In this document: positions 49,385 through 59,049 of the stretch, in pieces
Numbering within the stretch: position 1 is the stretch's first letter
Layout of the letters: each line of letters starts with the position of its first letter
Source of the DNA: Escherichia coli
GTDB taxonomy: Bacteria; Pseudomonadota; Gammaproteobacteria; Enterobacterales; Enterobacteriaceae
DNA length: 64,000 bases
Direction: 5' to 3' (one strand)
Assembly (NCBI RefSeq): GCF_003334385.1
Contig: NZ_QOWN01000012.1
Notes under the pieces: generated by a model
Told to the model about the DNA's origin: nothing
Database searches by the model: none
The model's input: only the letters and a program-made list of their open reading frames with translations
Translations under genes and position numbers: made by a program

Positions 49385-49566
49385 CCTTTGTAGGCCTGAT
49401 AAGACGCGCCAGCGTCGCATCAGGCATCGGAGCACAACTGCCGGATTCGGCGTGAACGCCTTATCCGATCTACGGGCCTCGTCCCTGTTGTGATAAAGGC
49501 ATCAAATCCCAGACATGATAAGACGCGCCAGCGTCGCATCAGGCGATAAATGCCTGATGCGATAAA
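49385..49566. repeat. BIME cluster: at least three REP units in alternating orientation
   Basis: REP cores at about 49391-49426, 49441-49472 and 49515-49545 between convergent yqfA and ygfZ. Confidence 0.7.
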
Positions 49567-51488: not shown

Positions 51489-52010
51489 TCAGGCGTAATG
51501 CTCTGCCATTTCGTTGAGGATTTGCTCGCACCAGCTCTGAATACGCTCGTCGCTAAGGTCATACTGGTTAGTTTCATCCAGCGCCAGACCCACGAACAGT
51601 TGCCCGTCAGCAATCACCGGTTTCGGGCTGGTAAATTCATATCCTTCCGTTGGCCAGTAGCCGACGAACTTCACGCCTTTGGTCGAGAGTTTGTCATGCA
51701 GCATACCGAGCGCATCGAGGAACCACTCGCCGTATCCCAGTTGATCGCCAAGCCCATACAGCGCAACAATTTTACCTTCAAGGTTCAGGTCGTCGAGCTG
51801 ATCCCAGACGGCTTCCCAGTCTTCCTGGATTTCACCAAAATCCCAGGTCGGGATACCCAGAATGAGCACATCGTACTGCTCCATTAATTTCGGGGAGTCG
51901 TCCTTGAGGTTATGTAAGGTCACCAGTTCTGGGCCGATAATATCGCGGATTTTTTCTGCCGCCATTTCGGTGTAACAGGTGCTGGAACCGTAAAAAAGAC
52001 CCATATTCAT
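51489..52010 (-). CDS. fldB: flavodoxin 2
   Basis: 173-aa [29 protein letters not shown]... Confidence 0.9.
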
Positions 52011-52121
52011 AACGTAAGCTTCTCGATTCTGCTGTGGCTTTTGCGGCTAGTGTATCAGAATCGCTTTAGTCACGGCACAATAAGGCATAATGGATCAAAT
52101 GAGTGACCATAAGGGGCGCAA

Positions 52122-53018
52122 GTGAAACAGGATCTGGCACGCATCGAGCAGTTTCTTGATGCTCTGTGGCTGGAAAAAAATCTGGCTGAAAATACGTTGA
52201 ACGCTTACCGTCGCGATCTGTCAATGATGGTGGAGTGGTTGCATCACCGCGGGTTGACGCTGGCGACGGCGCAAAGTGACGATTTGCAGGCATTACTGGC
52301 AGAACGGCTGGAGGGCGGGTATAAAGCCACCAGCTCAGCGCGTTTGCTGAGTGCAGTGCGCCGATTGTTCCAGTATCTTTATCGCGAAAAGTTTCGTGAA
52401 GACGATCCCAGTGCGCATCTCGCTTCACCGAAATTGCCCCAGCGTTTGCCAAAAGATTTAAGCGAAGCGCAGGTCGAACGTTTATTACAGGCACCATTAA
52501 TCGATCAGCCACTGGAGCTACGCGATAAAGCCATGCTTGAAGTGTTGTATGCTACCGGGCTGCGTGTCTCTGAACTGGTCGGACTGACAATGAGTGATAT
52601 CAGCCTGCGTCAGGGCGTGGTACGGGTCATTGGTAAAGGCAACAAAGAGCGTCTGGTGCCGTTAGGTGAAGAGGCGGTTTACTGGCTGGAAACCTATCTG
52701 GAACATGGGCGTCCGTGGCTGCTGAATGGTGTGTCAATTGACGTGTTGTTTCCCAGCCAGCGTGCGCAGCAGATGACGCGACAGACCTTCTGGCACCGTA
52801 TTAAACATTATGCTGTGCTGGCGGGTATCGACAGCGAAAAGCTGTCACCGCATGTGTTGCGTCACGCTTTTGCCACTCATTTATTAAATCATGGTGCGGA
52901 TTTACGCGTGGTGCAGATGCTACTGGGCCACAGCGATCTCTCCACCACGCAAATTTATACGCATGTCGCTACCGAGCGTCTGCGGCAACTTCATCAACAG
53001 CATCACCCGCGGGCGTGA
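52122..53018 (+). CDS. xerD: site-specific tyrosine recombinase XerD (chromosome dimer resolution)
   Basis: 298-aa ORF from GTG; catalytic R..HxxR..Y region (LRHAFATHLL ... IYTHV); housekeeping context, no adjacent mobile-element genes. Confidence 0.9.
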   Translation: MKQDLARIEQFLDALWLEKNLAENTLNAYRRDLSMMVEWLHHRGLTLATAQSDDLQALLAERLEGGYKATSSARLLSAVRRLFQYLYREKFREDDPSAHLASPKLPQRLPKDLSEAQVERLLQAPLIDQPLELRDKAMLEVLYATGLRVSELVGLTMSDISLRQGVVRVIGKGNKERLVPLGEEAVYWLETYLEHGRPWLLNGVSIDVLFPSQRAQQMTRQTFWHRIKHYAVLAGIDSEKLSPHVLRHAFATHLLNHGADLRVVQMLLGHSDLSTTQIYTHVATERLRQLHQQHHPRA

Positions 53019-53042
53019 TGTCTGAAAAGAACGGGAAGATTT

Positions 53043-53753
53043 ATGAAGAAAGGTTTTATGTTGTTTACTTTGTTAGCGGCGTTTTCAGGCTTTGCTCAGG
53101 CTGATGACGCGGCAATTCAACAAACGTTAGCCAAAATGGGCATCAAAAGCAGCGATATTCAGCCCGCGCCTGTAGCTGGCATGAAGACAGTTCTGACTAA
53201 CAGCGGCGTGTTGTACATCACCGATGATGGTAAACATATCATTCAGGGGCCAATGTATGACGTTAGTGGCACGGCTCCGGTCAATGTCACCAATAAGATG
53301 CTGTTAAAGCAGTTGAATGCGCTTGAAAAAGAGATGATCGTTTATAAAGCGCCGCAGGAAAAACACGTCATCACCGTGTTTACTGATATTACCTGTGGCT
53401 ACTGCCACAAACTGCATGAGCAAATGGCAGACTACAACGCGCTGGGGATCACCGTGCGTTATCTTGCTTTCCCGCGCCAGGGGCTGGACAGCGATGCAGA
53501 GAAAGAAATGAAAGCTATCTGGTGTGCGAAAGATAAAAACAAAGCGTTTGATGATGTGATGGCAGGTAAAAGCGTCGCACCAGCCAGTTGCGACGTGGAT
53601 ATTGCCGACCATTACGCACTTGGCGTCCAGCTTGGCGTTAGCGGTACTCCGGCAGTTGTGCTGAGCAATGGCACACTTGTTCCGGGTTACCAGCCGCCGA
53701 AAGAGATGAAAGAATTCCTCGACGAACACCAAAAAATGACCAGCGGTAAATAA
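53043..53753 (+). CDS. dsbC: periplasmic disulfide isomerase DsbC
   Basis: 236-aa ORF with signal peptide and CGYC active site. Confidence 0.9.
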   Translation: MKKGFMLFTLLAAFSGFAQADDAAIQQTLAKMGIKSSDIQPAPVAGMKTVLTNSGVLYITDDGKHIIQGPMYDVSGTAPVNVTNKMLLKQLNALEKEMIVYKAPQEKHVITVFTDITCGYCHKLHEQMADYNALGITVRYLAFPRQGLDSDAEKEMKAIWCAKDKNKAFDDVMAGKSVAPASCDVDIADHYALGVQLGVSGTPAVVLSNGTLVPGYQPPKEMKEFLDEHQKMTSGK

Positions 53754-53758
53754 TTCGC

Positions 53759-55492
53759 GTGAAACAACAGATACAACTTCGTCGCCGTGAAGTCGATGAA
53801 ACGGCAGACTTGCCCGCTGAATTGCCTCCCTTGCTGCGCCGTTTATACGCCAGCCGGGGAGTACGCAGTGCGCAAGAACTGGAACGCAGTGTTAAAGGTA
53901 TGCTGCCCTGGCAGCAACTGAGCGGCGTCGAAAAGGCCGTTGAGATCCTTTACAACGCTTTTCGCGAAGGAACGCGGATTATTGTGGTCGGTGATTTCGA
54001 CGCCGACGGCGCGACCAGCACGGCTCTAAGCGTGCTGGCGATGCGCTCGCTTGGTTGCAGCAATATCGACTACCTGGTACCAAACCGTTTCGAAGACGGT
54101 TACGGCTTAAGCCCGGAAGTGGTCGATCAGGCCCATGCCCGTGGCGCGCAGTTAATTGTCACGGTGGATAACGGTATTTCCTCCCATGCGGGGGTTGAGC
54201 ACGCTCGCTCGTTGGGCATCCCGGTTATTGTTACCGATCACCATTTGCCAGGCGACACATTACCCGCAGCGGAAGCGATCATTAACCCTAACTTGCGCGA
54301 CTGTAATTTCCCGTCGAAATCACTGGCAGGCGTGGGTGTGGCGTTTTATCTGATGCTGGCGCTGCGCACCTTTTTGCGCGATCAGGGCTGGTTTGATGAG
54401 CGTAACATCGCAATTCCTAACCTGGCAGAACTGCTGGATCTGGTCGCGCTGGGGACAGTGGCGGACGTCGTGCCGCTGGACGCTAATAATCGCATTCTGA
54501 CCTGGCAGGGGATGAGTCGCATCCGAGCCGGAAAGTGCCGTCCGGGGATTAAAGCGCTGCTTGAAGTGGCAAACCGTGATGCACAAAAACTCGCCGCCAG
54601 CGATTTAGGTTTTGCGCTGGGGCCACGTCTCAATGCTGCCGGACGACTGGACGATATGTCCGTCGGTGTGGCGCTGTTGTTGTGCGACAACATCGGCGAA
54701 GCGCGCGTGCTGGCAAATGAACTCGATGCGCTAAACCAGACGCGAAAAGAGATCGAACAAGGAATGCAAATTGAAGCCCTGACCCTGTGCGAGAAACTGG
54801 AGCGCAGCCGTGACACGCTACCCGGCGGGCTGGCAATGTATCACCCCGAATGGCATCAGGGCGTTGTCGGTATTCTGGCTTCGCGCATCAAAGAGCGTTT
54901 TCACCGTCCGGTTATCGCGTTTGCGCCAGCAGGTGACGGTACGCTGAAAGGTTCCGGTCGCTCCATTCAGGGGCTGCATATGCGTGATGCGCTGGAGCGA
55001 TTAGACACACTCTACCCTGGCATGATGCTGAAGTTTGGCGGTCATGCGATGGCGGCGGGTTTGTCGCTGGAAGAGGATAAATTCAAACTCTTTCAACAAC
55101 GGTTTGGCGAACTGGTTACTGAGTGGCTGGACCCTTCGCTATTGCAAGGCGAAGTGGTATCAGACGGTCCGTTAAGCCCGGCCGAAATGACCATGGAAGT
55201 GGCGCAGCTGCTGCGCGATGCTGGCCCGTGGGGGCAGATGTTCCCGGAGCCGCTGTTTGACGGTCATTTCCGTCTGCTGCAACAGCGGCTGGTGGGCGAA
55301 CGTCATTTGAAGGTGATGGTCGAACCGGTCGGCGGCGGTCCACTGCTGGATGGTATTGCTTTTAATGTCGATACCGCCCTCTGGCCGGATAACGGCGTGC
55401 GCGAAGTGCAACTGGCTTATAAGCTCGATATCAACGAGTTTCGCGGCAACCGCAGCCTGCAAATTATCATCGACAATATCTGGCCAATTTAG
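53759..55492 (+). CDS. recJ: ssDNA-specific 5'-3' exonuclease RecJ
   Basis: 577-aa ORF from GTG; DHH phosphoesterase motifs (VVGDFDADG, DHH). Confidence 0.9.
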   Translation: MKQQIQLRRREVDETADLPAELPPLLRRLYASRGVRSAQELERSVKGMLPWQQLSGVEKAVEILYNAFREGTRIIVVGDFDADGATSTALSVLAMRSLGCSNIDYLVPNRFEDGYGLSPEVVDQAHARGAQLIVTVDNGISSHAGVEHARSLGIPVIVTDHHLPGDTLPAAEAIINPNLRDCNFPSKSLAGVGVAFYLMLALRTFLRDQGWFDERNIAIPNLAELLDLVALGTVADVVPLDANNRILTWQGMSRIRAGKCRPGIKALLEVANRDAQKLAASDLGFALGPRLNAAGRLDDMSVGVALLLCDNIGEARVLANELDALNQTRKEIEQGMQIEALTLCEKLERSRDTLPGGLAMYHPEWHQGVVGILASRIKERFHRPVIAFAPAGDGTLKGSGRSIQGLHMRDALERLDTLYPGMMLKFGGHAMAAGLSLEEDKFKLFQQRFGELVTEWLDPSLLQGEVVSDGPLSPAEMTMEVAQLLRDAGPWGQMFPEPLFDGHFRLLQQRLVGERHLKVMVEPVGGGPLLDGIAFNVDTALWPDNGVREVQLAYKLDINEFRGNRSLQIIIDNIWPI

Positions 55493-55582
55493 CGTCATCT
55501 TCTCTATAAAAAAGAGCGTGGATTGGGTACAATCCCGCTCTTATCACCGCATTTTGACTAGCTCAATAAAAGAAATCAGACC

Positions 55583-56681
55583 ATGTTTGAAATTAATCCG
55601 GTAAATAATCGCATTCAGGACCTCACGGAACGCTCCGACGTTCTTAGGGGGTATCTTTGACTACGACGCCAAGAAAGAGCGTCTGGAAGAAGTAAACGCC
55701 GAGCTGGAACAGCCGGATGTCTGGAACGAACCCGAACGCGCACAGGCGCTGGGTAAAGAGCGTTCCTCCCTCGAAGCCGTTGTCGACACCCTCGACCAAA
55801 TGAAACAGGGGCTGGAAGATGTTTCTGGTCTGCTGGAACTGGCTGTAGAAGCTGACGACGAAGAAACCTTTAACGAAGCCGTTGCTGAACTCGACGCCCT
55901 GGAAGAAAAACTGGCGCAGCTTGAGTTCCGCCGTATGTTCTCTGGCGAATATGACAGCGCCGACTGCTACCTCGATATTCAGGCGGGGTCTGGCGGTACG
56001 GAAGCACAGGACTGGGCGAGCATGCTTGAGCGTATGTATCTGCGCTGGGCAGAATCGCGTGGTTTCAAAACTGAAATCATCGAAGAGTCGGAAGGTGAAG
56101 TGGCGGGTATTAAATCCGTGACGATCAAAATCTCCGGCGATTACGCTTACGGCTGGCTGCGTACAGAAACCGGCGTTCACCGCCTGGTGCGTAAAAGCCC
56201 GTTTGACTCCGGCGGTCGTCGCCACACGTCGTTCAGCTCCGCGTTTGTTTATCCGGAAGTTGATGATGATATTGATATCGAAATCAACCCGGCGGATCTG
56301 CGCATTGACGTTTATCGCGCGTCCGGCGCGGGCGGTCAGCACGTTAACCGTACCGAATCTGCGGTGCGTATTACCCACATCCCGACCGGGATCGTGACCC
56401 AGTGCCAGAACGACCGTTCCCAGCACAAGAACAAAGATCAGGCCATGAAGCAGATGAAAGCGAAGCTTTATGAACTGGAGATGCAGAAGAAAAATGCCGA
56501 GAAACAGGCGATGGAAGATAACAAATCCGACATCGGCTGGGGCAGCCAGATTCGTTCTTATGTCCTTGATGACTCCCGCATTAAAGATCTGCGCACCGGG
56601 GTAGAAACCCGCAACACGCAGGCCGTGCTGGACGGCAGCCTGGATCAATTTATCGAAGCAAGTTTGAAAGCAGGGTTATGA
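55583..56681 (+). CDS. prfB: peptide chain release factor 2, expressed through a programmed +1 frameshift: join(55583..55657, 55659..56681)
   Basis: Frame 0 gives [25 protein letters not shown] then an in-frame TGA at 55658-55660; the +1 frame continues [11 protein letters not shown]... into ORF 55800..56681 with the GGQ motif; total 365 aa. Confidence 0.9.
55646..55661 (+). other. prfB +1 frameshift site: internal SD-like AGGGGG, then TAT CTT TGA C
   Basis: AGGGGG at 55646-55651, 3 nt before the CUU slippery codon (55655-55657) and in-frame UGA (55658-55660). Confidence 0.85.
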
Positions 56682-56690
56682 GGAACCAAC

Positions 56691-58208
56691 ATGTCTGAAC
56701 AACACGCACAGGGCGCTGACGCGGTAGTCGATCTTAACAATGAACTGAAAACGCGTCGTGAGAAGCTGGCGAACCTGCGCGAGCAGGGGATTGCCTTCCC
56801 GAACGATTTCCGTCGCGATCATACCTCTGACCAATTGCACGCAGAATTCGACGGCAAAGAGAACGAAGAACTGGAAGCGCTGAACATCGAAGTCGCCGTT
56901 GCTGGCCGCATGATGACCCGTCGTATTATGGGTAAAGCGTCTTTCGTTACCCTGCAGGACGTTGGCGGTCGCATTCAGCTGTACGTTGCCCGTGACGATC
57001 TCCCGGAAGGCGTTTATAACGAGCAGTTCAAAAAATGGGACCTCGGCGACATCCTCGGCGCGAAAGGTAAGCTGTTCAAAACCAAAACCGGCGAACTGTC
57101 TATCCACTGCACCGAGTTGCGTCTGCTGACCAAAGCACTGCGTCCGCTGCCGGATAAATTCCACGGCTTGCAGGATCAGGAAGCGCGCTATCGTCAGCGT
57201 TATCTCGATCTCATCTCCAACGATGAATCCCGCAACACCTTTAAAGTGCGCTCGCAGATCCTCTCTGGTATTCGCCAGTTCATGGTGAACCGCGGCTTTA
57301 TGGAAGTTGAAACGCCGATGATGCAGGTGATCCCTGGCGGTGCCGCTGCGCGTCCGTTTATCACCCACCATAACGCGCTGGATCTCGACATGTACCTGCG
57401 TATCGCGCCGGAACTGTACCTCAAGCGTCTGGTGGTTGGTGGCTTCGAGCGTGTATTCGAAATCAACCGTAACTTCCGTAACGAAGGTATTTCCGTACGT
57501 CATAACCCAGAGTTCACCATGATGGAACTCTACATGGCTTACGCAGATTACAAAGATCTGATCGAGCTGACCGAATCGCTGTTCCGTACTCTGGCACAGG
57601 ATATTCTCGGTAAGACGGAAGTGACCTACGGCGACGTGACGCTGGACTTCGGTAAACCGTTCGAAAAACTGACCATGCGTGAAGCGATCAAGAAATATCG
57701 CCCGGAAACCGACATGGCGGATCTGGACAACTTCGACTCTGCGAAAGCAATTGCTGAATCTATCGGCATCCACGTTGAGAAGAGCTGGGGTCTGGGCCGT
57801 ATCGTTACCGAGATCTTCGAAGAAGTGGCAGAAGCACATCTGATTCAGCCGACCTTCATTACTGAATATCCGGCAGAAGTTTCTCCGCTGGCGCGTCGTA
57901 ACGACGTTAACCCGGAAATCACAGACCGCTTTGAGTTCTTCATTGGTGGTCGTGAAATCGGTAACGGCTTTAGCGAGCTGAATGACGCGGAAGATCAGGC
58001 GCAACGCTTCCTGGATCAGGTTGCCGCGAAAGACGCAGGTGACGACGAAGCGATGTTCTACGATGAAGATTACGTCACCGCACTGGAACATGGCTTACCG
58101 CCGACAGCAGGTCTGGGAATTGGTATCGACCGTATGGTAATGCTGTTCACCAACAGCCATACCATCCGCGACGTTATTCTGTTCCCGGCGATGCGTCCGG
58201 TAAAATAA
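56691..58208 (+). CDS. lysS: lysyl-tRNA synthetase (constitutive)
   Basis: 505-aa [36 protein letters not shown]... Confidence 0.95.
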
Positions 58209-58226
58209 GCATTACGTTATGCTCAC

Positions 58227-58255
58227 AACCCCGGCAAATGTCGGGGTTTTTTTAT
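58227..58255. terminator. shared terminator for convergent lysS and idi
   Basis: ccccg gcaaatgt cgggg followed by ttttttt on the plus strand and preceded by an A-rich tract; overlaps the idi stop codon. Confidence 0.5.
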
Positions 58256-58800
58256 TTAAGCTGGGTAAATGCAGATAATCGTTTTCTGGCTTCGCGATTT
58301 GTCGCCTGCATCACCATCCACGGACTGAACGCCCACGGCGTGGCATCAATACCGTGTAATACATCTGCTAAATCACACCATTGATAATCCATCACTTCAT
58401 CATCATTGATCTGTAACGCACTAGTGGTGCGTGCGGCAAATACCGGACACACTTCATTTTCCACAATGCCACTCGGATCGGTGGCGCGGTAGCGAAAGTC
58501 AGGATAGATAGATTCAGGAGGCGTAATTTCCACGCCAAGCTCATAACGGCAACGGCGGATCACTGCGTCTTCGTTGCTTTCTCCCAGTTGTGGGTGCCCA
58601 CAAACCGAGTTAGTCCACACGCCAGGCCATGCTTTTTTGCTCAGTGCGCGGCGGGTAACTAATAATTGTCCTTTGGCATTAAACAGCCAACTGGAGAACG
58701 CGAGATGTAAGCGGGTGTCTGCCGTGTGTGCGGCATACTTTTCCAGCGTACCCGTGGGAACTCCCTGTGCATTCAATAAAATGACGTGTTCCGTTTGCAT
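58252..58800 (-). CDS. idi: isopentenyl-diphosphate delta-isomerase (type 1, Nudix)
   Basis: 182-aa [44 protein letters not shown]... Confidence 0.9.
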
Positions 58801-59049
58801 AATTTCTCACATGTAATTCTGATCACTCATCATTATAGATAATTGAAGAGTGAAATGATTAACCAAGTGAGCGTTTATCGACAACCGCCCGTTTTGAGCG
58901 GATGCCGACAGGTAAAAACCATTTAAAAAAGTAGCATCATATATTTGAAGCGACTTTCAATGGCCATTGCAACACAGTCAGAAATGACAGGAATAGAGAG
59001 AGTAAAAAGCAACAACAGACTGAATATAGCGCGCATTAAAAAATTCATA

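What the first reader, a model, noticed from the sequence alone, without database searches (positions are those of the whole stretch)
55493..55582. Strong 14-bp stem-loop in the recJ-prfB spacer without a T-tract
aagagcg-t-ggattg ggta caatcc-c-cgctctt forms a nearly perfect 14-bp stem (one mismatch) 20 nt after the recJ stop. It is preceded by an A-run and followed by atcaccgcatttt, so it is not a canonical plus-strand intrinsic terminator. It could be an RNase III site, a partial terminator setting the recJ:prfB ratio, or a protein-binding site.
Basis: seen in the sequence. Interest (0 to 1): 0.25.

Follow-up and report, generated by a model that had tools for sequence, protein, structure and literature searches.

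The report
Stem-loop wrapped around the prfB promoter
The stem-loop after recJ in E. coli is real and kept by evolution, but it sits on the promoter and start site of the next gene, prfB; it looks like a leaky gene-end hairpin squeezed into a very short spacer, which is a tidy but fairly ordinary piece of gene architecture.

Summary
The window is the E. coli chromosome and this stretch is identical to K-12 MG1655. The stem-loop exists at 55512-55542. It has 13 pairs plus one bulged U, not 14 pairs with a mismatch.

The -10 hexamer TACAAT (55528-55533) spans the loop and 3' arm. The G+C-rich discriminator forms the rest of the 3' arm. The published primary start site (MG1655 3036324 = window 55541) lies two bases from the end of the stem. 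Ordinary prfB mRNA therefore does not contain the hairpin.

Across 80 Enterobacteriaceae loci the two arms co-vary:
- 25 double changes are inferred on a tree.
- Native arm pairs average -14.6 kcal/mol against -11.2 for swapped arms (0 of 1000 permutations as stable).
- Cedecea and some Pantoea carry a different stem around the same -10.

Neither strand is consistently a textbook terminator. The sense tail UUAUCACC never scores as one. The antisense tail U6 scores in E. coli and in 24 of 66 rows. The 3'-end tables I could search list no RNA end here.

Best reading: a leaky gene-end hairpin for xerD-dsbC-recJ transcripts, fused to the prfB promoter and terminator-shaped on the antisense strand. 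Function is inferred, not shown. Interest is modest.

The parts
53759..55492 (+). recJ coding sequence (stop codon TAG ends at 55492)
   Evidence: ORF list. Annotated recJ in all matching E. coli genomes. MG1655 b2892 at 3036373-3038106, mapped by m = 3091865 - w.
55505..55510 (+). -35-region hexamer TATAAA of the prfB promoter. It matches TTGACA at 3 of 6 positions and lies 17 bp upstream of the -10.
   Evidence: Read from the sequence. T55505 and A55509 are invariant and A55508 nearly invariant in 66 rows. The same TA(T/C)AAA at the same spacing occurs in Cedecea and Erwiniaceae. Its role as a -35 is inferred.
55508..55513 (.). A6 run, which reads as U6 on the minus strand directly after the stem. 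It overlaps the -35 hexamer and the first two stem pairs.
   Evidence: The minus-strand tail UUUUUUAU gives a positive terminator score in E. coli and in 24 of 66 rows.
55512..55525 (.). 5' arm of the hairpin (AAGAGCG-U-GGAUUG, with U55519 bulged). This is the promoter's -35/-10 spacer.
   Evidence: Folds. On the tree most single changes fall on this arm (A>G, G>A), consistent with it being the freer side.
55526..55529 (.). Loop GGUA. It holds G-14 and the first two bases (T-12, A-11) of the -10 hexamer.
   Evidence: G55526, T55528 and A55529 are invariant in the alignment.
55530..55542 (.). 3' arm of the hairpin (CAAUCC-CGCUCUU). It comprises the last four bases of the -10, the discriminator and the start site.
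55528..55533 (+). -10 hexamer TACAAT of the sigma-70 promoter of prfB-lysS
   Evidence: The TAnnnT positions are invariant in 66 rows. It lies 7 nt upstream of the mapped primary start site. prfB is preferentially transcribed by sigma-70 holoenzyme in vitro (PMC3141248).
55534..55540 (+). G+C-rich discriminator CCCGCTC
   Evidence: Sequence. Conserved as C(C/T)CGC(T/C)C in most rows. A role in stringent or supercoiling control is inferred from promoters of this type, not tested.
55541..55541 (+). Primary transcription start site of prfB-lysS (MG1655 3036324, reverse strand)
   Evidence: SMRT-Cappable-seq Supplementary Data 1 and 2 of PMC6131387 record 620 reads starting here, 159 of which end at 3033612. 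The coordinate map is checked. That end, 3033612, equals window 58253, just after the lysS terminator hairpin at 58227-58248.
55541..55582 (+). 42-nt 5' UTR of prfB, including the nearly invariant block ACCGCATTTTGAC (55547-55559)
   Evidence: The function of the block is unknown.
55583..56681 (+). prfB coding sequence, with the programmed +1 frameshift site CTT TGA C at 55655-55661
   Evidence: MG1655 b2891 is joined from 2 pieces.

Best explanation
The inverted repeat is a gene-end hairpin of the upstream xerD-dsbC-recJ transcripts that has been fitted into the core promoter of prfB-lysS. The recJ-prfB spacer is only 90 nt, and the promoter begins almost at the recJ stop codon.

The only G+C-rich segment available is the promoter's discriminator. 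The freely evolving -35/-10 spacer has been kept complementary to it. This places the A+T-rich -10 hexamer in the loop.

Transcripts started at the prfB promoter begin two bases before the end of the stem, so they never contain the hairpin. RNA polymerases arriving from recJ transcribe the whole hairpin just as they cross prfB +1.

There the hairpin, followed by the weak U-tract UCUUAU/UUAUCA, most likely has two effects:
- It releases a fraction of polymerases, acting as a leaky intrinsic terminator.
- It leaves a 3'-terminal stem that protects recJ mRNA from 3' exonucleases.

The remaining polymerases read on into prfB-lysS, for example under sigma-E induction.

In E. coli and relatives that carry the A6 run, the same hairpin is a canonical terminator for the opposite strand. 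It would stop any antisense transcription from running into recJ.

Shown:
- the structure;
- its overlap with the mapped start site and the conserved -10;
- co-variation of the arms;
- read-through operon variants.

Inferred: termination, 3'-end protection, and which strand matters.
For: Structure:
- 13 bp plus a bulge, about -20 kcal/mol for the 45-nt core on the + strand.
- It starts 20 nt after the recJ stop, the usual place for a gene-end hairpin.

Promoter overlap:
- The primary start site is at w55541 with 620 reads (PMC6131387).
- TAnnnT and G-14 are invariant in the alignment.

Selection for pairing:
- 79.4% of cells are paired against 75.2% in shuffles.
- There are 66 double-change cells against 23 +/- 4 in shuffles (0 of 500 as high) and 7-23 in slid controls.
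- 25 Watson-Crick to Watson-Crick double changes are inferred on a neighbour-joining tree, at pairs 21:45, 26:41 and 27:40.
- Native arm combinations average -14.6 kcal/mol against -11.2 for chimeras, with 0 of 1000 permutations as stable.
- Cedecea and Pantoea cypripedii/eucrina have stems of different sequence around the same -10.

Gene-end role:
- Where prfB is not downstream (Erwinia sp. L088, Mixta L089), recJ ends with an ordinary hairpin plus UUUUAAUU.
- Superficieibacter L048 has acquired a separate canonical terminator upstream, and its promoter hairpin has decayed to -7 kcal/mol.

Leakiness:
- SMRT-Cappable-seq lists both dsbC-recJ / xerD-dsbC-recJ and dsbC-recJ-prfB operon variants.
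- Sigma-E overproduction raises dsbC, recJ and prfB (PMC2731931).

Antisense shape: the minus-strand tail UUUUUUAU gives a score of +18.6 in E. coli and a positive score in 24 of 66 rows.
Against: - No RNA 3' end at MG1655 30363xx, and no recJ or prfB entry, appears in the Term-seq tables of PMC7815308. The same is true of the defined TSS-TTS list of PMC6131387 apart from the start site itself, and of the TERMITe supplements, whose organism coverage I did not check. recJ is weakly expressed, so this is weak negative evidence.
- The sense tail is U-poor and scores as a non-terminator in 66 of 66 rows.
- A polymerase that terminates here has already crossed the prfB promoter, so the hairpin cannot shield the promoter from occlusion.
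- Wobble statistics give no strand preference: 21 changes to + strand G-U against 22 to - strand G-U. Mean fold energies are equal at -15.0 and -14.7.
- RNAalifold finds no consensus structure on the alignment.
- Escherichia sp. L003 has lost the hairpin through three changes with no visible replacement.
- Some Pantoea keep a promoter hairpin even though a strong separate hairpin follows recJ. This is not expected if lack of space were the only reason for the overlap.
Confidence: 0.45

Rival explanations
1. The selected function is on the minus strand. The hairpin plus U6 is an intrinsic terminator that stops antisense transcripts coming from the prfB/lysS side, or from divergent initiation, before they enter recJ. 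The sense-strand hairpin is a by-product.
For: - On the minus strand it has the canonical shape: stem followed at once by UUUUUUAU, score +18.6.
- It is the only hit of the simple terminator scan at this site.
- The minus orientation scores positive in 24 of 66 rows against 0 of 66 for the plus orientation, and its tails are U-richer throughout (median T 2.77 against 2.19).
- In most genera the minus-strand hairpin gains two apical G-U pairs and a tetraloop.
- Intestinirhabdus L052 keeps a minus-strand hairpin plus U8 while the plus-strand lower stem is lost.
Against: - Both flanking genes are on the + strand, and no minus-strand promoter-like site is found in 52000-59500.
- No feature is annotated there in the listed E. 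coli genomes.
- No minus-strand 3' end is listed.
- The U-tract is the complement of the conserved -35-region A-tract, so it may be there for promoter reasons.
- It is not canonical in Salmonella, Klebsiella, Kluyvera, Raoultella, Kosakonia or Cedecea.
- The ERIC-carrying Citrobacter L009, L011 and L016 keep the + strand hairpin through G-U pairs, while the minus-strand fold over the same columns falls to -6 to -8 kcal/mol.
Confidence: 0.2
2. The structure acts at the DNA level. Under negative supercoiling the inverted repeat extrudes as a cruciform, or as hairpins in transiently single-stranded DNA. This places the -10 hexamer in a single-stranded loop and tunes the supercoil- and ppGpp-sensitive prfB promoter.
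For: - The hairpin is always locked to the promoter, not to the recJ stop, when insertions of 30-130 bp separate the two.
- A-11 of the -10 lies in the loop in the Enterobacteriaceae version and in the different-sequence Cedecea and Pantoea versions.
- There is no strand bias in wobble changes or fold energy, as expected if both strands fold together.
- DNA-parameter folds give -12.9 and -12.2 kcal/mol, z about -6.
- Some Pantoea keep it despite a separate hairpin after recJ.
Against: - A 13-bp arm with a bulge and a 4-nt loop is short for cruciform extrusion at physiological superhelicity, by established knowledge.
- Many orthologues tolerate mismatches and 8-nt loops.
- -10 in the loop follows trivially if the only G+C-rich partner available is the discriminator.
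- No experimental sign of a cruciform here was found in the searchable literature.
Confidence: 0.1
3. There is no function of its own. The 3' arm is conserved because it is the promoter, and the apparent pairing of the spacer is chance plus shared ancestry.
For: - Many stem columns are promoter positions.
- The shuffle control only moves pairing from 75% to 79%.
- RNAalifold finds nothing.
- On the tree, 36 changes from Watson-Crick to mismatch are inferred.
- L003, L022 and L048 have lost the hairpin.
- No RNA ends are mapped here.
Against: - 25 double compensatory changes are inferred at three pairs, each showing both A-U and G-C states in many genera.
- The arm-swap test gives 0 of 1000 permutations as stable.
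- Slid-register controls are clearly lower.
- Cedecea and Pantoea have stems of different sequence at the same place.
Confidence: 0.12
4. It is a binding site for a dimeric regulator (a palindromic operator over the -10/-35 spacer), or an RNase III processing site in read-through RNA. These are the first reader's other two ideas.
For: - Dyad symmetry centred on the promoter is where repressor operators often lie.
- A double-stranded RNA segment between two cistrons could be a processing site.
Against: - Arm sequences differ between genera while complementarity is kept (E. coli GGATTG/CAATCC, Salmonella CGAAAT/ATTTCG, Cedecea CGTAAATCCGG/CCGGTTTACG). That is the signature of nucleic-acid pairing, not of a conserved protein half-site.
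- The dyad spans 31 bp, which is long for an operator.
- A 13-bp bulged helix is well below the roughly 20 bp of typical E. coli RNase III substrates, by established knowledge.
- No Rfam family matches.
Confidence: 0.04

Closest known systems
Intrinsic (Rho-independent) terminators, including bidirectional ones with an A-tract upstream and a U-tract downstream of one hairpin
   Same: A G+C-rich stem of 9-13 bp and a 4-nt loop, placed 20 nt after a stop codon. On the minus strand it is followed directly by U6. The A-tract, stem and U-rich layout resembles a degenerate bidirectional terminator.
   Different: The sense-strand U-tract is poor (UUAUCACC) and never reaches a terminator score. The flanking genes are co-directional, so the canonical orientation has no known transcript to stop. 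No mapped 3' ends were found. The 3' arm is itself a promoter.
Intercistronic stabiliser hairpins, and the stem-loops at which 3' exonucleases stop on Rho-terminated or processed transcripts (as described for REP sequences, and in PMC6061677 for Rho-dependent 3' ends)
   Same: A stable stem-loop without a U-tract sits just after a poorly expressed upstream cistron, within an operon that is partly read through.
   Different: It is single-copy (one place per genome), not a REP or ERIC family member. Protection of recJ mRNA has not been measured.
Sigma-70 promoters with a G+C-rich discriminator, of the type that drives translation-apparatus genes
   Same: TACAAT -10, G at -14, discriminator CCCGCTC and a mapped primary start. 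prfB groups with ribosomal-protein and tRNA genes as preferentially sigma-70-transcribed in vitro (PMC3141248).
   Different: The -35 is poor (TATAAA). The -35/-10 spacer is complementary to the -10-distal half and the discriminator, which is not a described feature of this promoter class.
Promoters regulated by hairpin or cruciform extrusion (phage N4 virion-RNA-polymerase promoters; the engineered cruciform-repressed bla promoter)
   Same: An inverted repeat is centred on promoter elements, with recognition bases in the loop.
   Different: Those cases were shown experimentally and use a different polymerase or an artificial repeat. Here extrusion is untested, and the repeat is short and bulged. 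This comparison is recalled from memory and is a lead only.

Membership tests
Intrinsic terminator, sense (+) strand, for recJ | Stable G+C-rich stem-loop (about 5-14 bp, loop 3-8 nt) | tested here: met
   13 bp plus a bulge, loop GGUA. The G-C-closed core folds at -16.5 kcal/mol.
Intrinsic terminator, sense (+) strand, for recJ | U-rich tract immediately 3' of the stem | tested here: not met
   The tail is UUAUCACCGCAUUUU, with T-score 2.19 and discriminant -18.2. The score is negative in 66 of 66 orthologous rows. The site is not listed by the + strand consensus scan.
Intrinsic terminator, sense (+) strand, for recJ | Lies shortly downstream of a same-strand gene end | tested here: met
   The stem starts 20 nt after the recJ stop.
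Intrinsic terminator, sense (+) strand, for recJ | RNA 3' ends map just after the stem | tested here: inconclusive
   There are no entries for recJ, prfB or 30363xx in the Term-seq tables of PMC7815308 or the TERMITe supplements. No TTS is defined there in PMC6131387. Operon variants ending after recJ are listed without coordinates. recJ expression is low.
Intrinsic terminator, antisense (-) strand | Stem-loop followed directly by a U-tract | tested here: met
   The tail is UUUUUUAU and the discriminant is +18.6 in E. coli. It is positive in only 24 of 66 orthologous rows.
Intrinsic terminator, antisense (-) strand | A transcription unit on that strand that it ends | tested here: not met
   Both neighbours are on the + strand. 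There is no minus-strand promoter-like site in 52000-59500. No feature is annotated under the site in the listed E. coli genomes. The scan is crude, so weak antisense promoters are not excluded.
Sigma-70 promoter (prfB-lysS) | -10 hexamer at the right distance from an experimentally mapped primary 5' end | tested here: met
   TACAAT lies at 55528-55533. The start site at 55541 comes from cap-enriched full-length reads (620 reads). TAnnnT is invariant in 66 rows.
Sigma-70 promoter (prfB-lysS) | -35 hexamer 16-18 bp upstream | tested here: inconclusive
   TATAAA at 17 bp matches TTGACA at 3 of 6 positions. It is conserved but below the threshold of the consensus scan, which does not list this promoter.
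RNase III processing site | About 20 bp or more of near-continuous double-stranded RNA | tested here: not met
   13 bp with a bulge in E. coli, and 7-11 bp in most orthologues.
REP / ERIC and other repeated extragenic palindromes | Many copies per genome | tested here: not met
   One place per genome in 5423 E. coli genomes.
Palindromic operator for a dimeric regulator | Half-site sequence conserved among relatives | tested here: not met
   The arms change sequence while staying complementary.
Any curated RNA family (Rfam 15) | Match reaching the family's gathering score | tested here: not met
   Only chance-level matches (E from 4 to 8, far below the gathering scores) in 55000-56000.

The most novel reading that the evidence does not exclude
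The hairpin is a device that couples two transcription units through one piece of DNA. There are two possible forms:
- Polymerases ending the recJ transcript inside the prfB promoter are handed over for re-initiation at that promoter. This would be terminator-promoter recycling by one-dimensional diffusion, so far shown only in vitro (PMC6978380).
- The repeat extrudes under supercoiling and presents the -10 hexamer as single-stranded DNA, making prfB (release factor 2) output sensitive to DNA superhelicity or to upstream transcription.

The recurrence of a different-sequence stem around the same -10 in Cedecea and Pantoea would then reflect selection on the promoter-in-a-loop geometry itself.
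Probability: 0.08. Interest if true: 0.65.

Novelty: new member of a known kind. Interest (0 to 1): 0.3.

Why it matters
prfB encodes release factor 2, an essential and famously autoregulated gene. Its frameshift has been studied for decades, while its promoter has drawn little attention. I found no paper in the searchable library that discusses the promoter or this hairpin.

Showing that the conserved stem-loop after recJ is physically the prfB promoter clarifies three things:
- which transcripts can contain it;
- why it lacks a U-tract;
- why its 3' arm is so conserved.

If it is a leaky terminator or 3'-end barrier, it sets how much stress-induced (sigma-E) transcription of xerD-dsbC-recJ spills into prfB-lysS. 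It is also a clean natural example of a promoter spacer evolving under a pairing constraint. That is useful as a caution for terminator predictors and for covariation-based RNA-motif searches. As it stands this is a refinement of the annotation of a well-known locus, not a new mechanism.

Tried and rejected
Searches that found nothing:
- An Rfam search of 55000-56000 at a permissive threshold gave only chance matches.
- The repeat finder did not report the repeat, because the bulge splits it into 7- and 6-nt arms.
- RNAalifold on the 66-row alignment, on trimmed columns, on either strand, and without Cedecea gave no or almost no consensus helix. I attribute this to register shifts of the bulge and to the many single mismatches. 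It remains a negative result.

Strand assignment:
- I tried to identify the functional strand from G-U against A-C pairs. Raw counts point to the + strand in the lower stem and the - strand in the upper stem.
- On a tree the totals are equal, 21 against 22.
- The pattern is explained by most single changes falling on the 5' arm, because the 3' arm is the promoter. The test is therefore uninformative.

Literature and supplements:
- No recJ or prfB 3' ends were found in PMC7815308 or PMC12207403.
- No supplements were held for PMC8848933, PMC6061677, PMC9023263 or PMC9122600.
- The classical papers were not held under the PMC ids I recalled for them (PMC207194, PMC281811, PMC6814526, PMC4288677), so I cannot say whether the original sequencing papers noted the hairpin.
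- The phrases 'prfB promoter', 'prfBp' and 'recJ-prfB' occur in no searchable paper.

Distant relatives:
- The first protein search was saturated by close relatives.
- Two 50%-cluster representatives came from A+T-rich genomes, one only 1.15 Mb, probably endosymbionts. Their spacers were uninformative.
- Erwiniaceae were reached through a second search.

Readings rejected, with reasons given under rivals and membership: RNase III site, protein operator and REP/ERIC membership.

Full report
**What the window is**

The 501 bases around the finding match all 5426 complete E. coli genomes at 95-100% identity. They are annotated recJ | prfB.

MG1655 is identical over the 111 bases compared around the spacer (window 55485-55595), and coordinates convert as m = 3091865 - w. 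Key positions:
- recJ ends at 55492.
- The prfB ATG is at 55583.
- The prfB frameshift site is at 55655-55661.

**The observation**

Folding 55493-55582 as RNA gives one dominant hairpin (-22.1 kcal/mol; z = -3.4):
- 55512-55518 AAGAGCG pairs with 55536-55542 CGCUCUU.
- U55519 is bulged.
- 55520-55525 GGAUUG pairs with 55530-55535 CAAUCC.
- The loop is GGUA.

The stem is 13 bp plus a bulge, not 14 bp with a mismatch.

The rest of the description is right: 20 nt after the stop, an A-run before it, and atcaccgcatttt after it.

Further measures of strength:
- With DNA parameters the 46-nt core has z about -6 on both strands, with 0 of 200 shuffles as good.
- It ranks about 19th among + strand 40-nt windows in the 64 kb. 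The stronger ones include REP and ERIC elements, terminators and coding-sequence structures.
- Within E. coli, 5104 of 5423 genomes match at >=99% over 55497-55560, which over 64 bases means identical.
- 14 genomes carry a Citrobacter-like allele that still forms a 9-bp bulged hairpin.

TACAAT at 55528-55533 spans the loop and 3' arm. The rest of the 3' arm is a G+C-rich discriminator, CCCGCTC.

SMRT-Cappable-seq enriches primary 5' ends and reads full-length transcripts. It lists a prfB-lysS transcript from TSS 3036324 (reverse) to TTS 3033612, with 620 reads starting at the TSS (PMC6131387 Supplementary Data 1 and 2).
- 3036324 is window 55541, 7 nt after TACAAT and two bases from the end of the stem.
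- The TTS maps to window 58253, just after the lysS terminator hairpin at 58227-58248. This validates the coordinate map.

The alignment of 66 distinct spacers shows these features as invariant or nearly so:
- TAnnnT of the -10;
- G at -14;
- T at -17;
- T..AA of a poor -35 (TATAAA, 17 bp upstream).

prfB is among the genes transcribed preferentially by sigma-70 holoenzyme in vitro, together with ribosomal-protein and tRNA genes (PMC3141248).

Consequence: prfB mRNA made from its own promoter does not contain the hairpin. Only read-through RNA from recJ, or antisense RNA, can contain it.

**Conservation and covariation**

A scan of one genome per species returned 80 Enterobacteriaceae loci with recJ-prfB adjacent.

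Most spacers are 85-91 nt. A few are longer because of insertions between the recJ stop and the promoter, including an ERIC-like element in four Citrobacter.

The hairpin always stays at a fixed distance from the -10, not from the recJ stop. Nearly every row folds into a homologous hairpin on either strand (mean -15.0 on + and -14.7 on -).

On the E. coli register:
- 79.4% of cells are paired, against 75.2 +/- 0.5% in shuffles and 38-50% for slid registers.
- There are 66 double-change cells, against 23 +/- 4 in shuffles (0 of 500 as high).
- Three pairs alternate between A-U and G-C in many genera: 21:45, 26:41 and 27:40.

Two further tests agree:
- Parsimony on a neighbour-joining tree of flanking coding sequence infers 25 Watson-Crick to Watson-Crick double changes.
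- Swapping 5' and 3' halves between species costs 3.4 kcal/mol on average, with 0 of 1000 permutations as stable as the native pairing.

Cedecea has a different and longer stem, CGTAAA-T-CCGG / CCGGTTTACG. It is extended by AAAATGCGG / CCGCATTT, and the -10 TAAACT lies wholly in the loop.

In Erwiniaceae:
- Pantoea cypripedii and P. eucrina have another different stem, ACG(C/U)GCU ... AGCGCGU, around TAAACT.
- Duffyella, P. ananatis and Paramixta do not have a strong promoter hairpin.

Caveats:
- RNAalifold returns no consensus.
- Many single mismatches are tolerated. On the tree there are 36 changes to a mismatch.
- L003, L022 and L048 have lost the hairpin.
- Related sequences inflate shuffle-based tests.

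**Which strand?**

On the minus strand the E. coli hairpin is followed by UUUUUUAU, and it is the only terminator-like hit at this site.

A d'Aubenton-Carafa-type score is +18.6 for the minus orientation and -18.2 for the plus. Across orthologues the plus orientation is never positive (0 of 66). The minus orientation is positive in 24 of 66, but not in Salmonella, Klebsiella, Kluyvera, Raoultella, Kosakonia or Cedecea.

The U-tract is the complement of the conserved -35-region A-tract, so it may exist for promoter reasons.

I found no minus-strand promoter-like site or annotated feature that would supply a transcript.

Wobble pairs do not decide the strand. Changes to + strand G-U (21) and to - strand G-U (22) are equal. 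The lower-stem and upper-stem asymmetry arises because most single changes fall on the 5' arm: A>G gives G-T and G>A gives A-C.

**Experimental traces**

Operon variants:
- dsbC-recJ and xerD-dsbC-recJ are listed alongside dsbC-recJ-prfB.
- Sigma-E overproduction raises dsbC, recJ and prfB (PMC2731931).
- Read-through therefore exists, and some upstream transcripts do not fully cover prfB.

No defined 3' end at 30363xx appears in the tables I could search.

**Natural experiments**

- Where prfB is not downstream (Erwinia sp., Mixta), recJ ends with an ordinary hairpin plus UUUUAAUU.
- In Superficieibacter a canonical bidirectional terminator has been inserted after recJ, and the promoter hairpin has decayed to -7 kcal/mol.
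- Duffyella has a strong separate hairpin and no promoter hairpin.

These fit the idea that recJ needs a 3' hairpin, and that in the compact 90-nt spacer the hairpin had to be built from the promoter's own discriminator.

P. cypripedii and P. eucrina have both a separate hairpin and a promoter hairpin. The sample is also tiny.

**Verdict**

The stem-loop is real and under selection for pairing. It is best described as a gene-end, terminator-type hairpin fused to the prfB-lysS core promoter. It is leaky or merely protective in the sense direction and terminator-shaped in the antisense direction in E. coli.

Confidence in the sense-strand gene-end role is about 0.45. The rivals are:
- an antisense terminator (0.2);
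- no function (0.12);
- a DNA-level promoter structure (0.1);
- a protein site or RNase III site (0.04).

It is a new, well-supported member of a known kind in a heavily studied locus. Interest is modest at 0.3. The most novel reading not excluded is a promoter-in-a-loop device that couples upstream termination or supercoiling to prfB initiation. I put its probability at about 0.08.

Noticed in passing
window 55547-55559 (prfB 5' UTR, +7 to +19): The block ACCGCATTTTGAC is nearly invariant in 66 Enterobacteriaceae spacers although it is untranslated. In Cedecea its CCGCATTT pairs with an upstream AAAATGCGG and lengthens the hairpin to 17-20 bp. Its function in E. coli is unknown.
   Followed up: partly
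L009, L010, L011, L016 (Citrobacter), about 2400-2530 in each locus; also window about 20509-20548: An ERIC-like imperfect palindrome of roughly 127 bp (core ...CCCCAGGAGCGTAC...GTACGTGACTGGGG...) is inserted between the recJ stop and the promoter hairpin in four Citrobacter species. A similar core sequence appears elsewhere in the window. The ERIC identification is from memory of the consensus and was not tested.
   Followed up: no
L082 (E. coli GMF054, NZ_CM183924.1 917795-918090): Fourteen of 5423 E. coli genomes fall in the 80-90% identity band for this stretch. The one inspected (GMF054) carries a recJ 3' end and spacer allele almost identical to that of Citrobacter youngae (L007). This suggests inter-genus recombination at the locus. 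The allele still forms a 9-bp bulged hairpin around the same -10.
   Followed up: partly
L048 (Superficieibacter electus) 2400-2582: The spacer is 182 nt and holds a separate canonical bidirectional terminator (CCGGCAGA...TCTGCCGG followed by GTATTTTT). The promoter-overlapping hairpin has decayed to about -7 kcal/mol.
   Followed up: partly
L003 (Escherichia sp. MOD1-EC7003) 2407-2493: A close relative of E. coli has three substitutions in the stem, all disruptive, while the -10 and A-run are intact. No replacement hairpin is visible in its 90-nt spacer.
   Followed up: no
window 58227-58253: The lysS-distal terminator (9-bp stem AACCCCGGC/GTCGGGGTT plus a T-run) coincides with the SMRT-Cappable-seq transcript end 3033612 (= window 58253), which that paper calls a novel TTS.
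   Followed up: yes
window 55541: The mapped primary start of prfB-lysS falls on a T, which is an uncommon initiating base. The true +1 may be a base or two away, for example A55543. Only one dataset could be consulted.
   Followed up: no
window about 49387-49561, 9022-9175 and 21826-21865: Clusters of very stable GCCTGATGCG/GCCGGATAAGGCG-type palindromes look like REP elements. They are the strongest hairpins in the window. The identification is by eye only.
   Followed up: no
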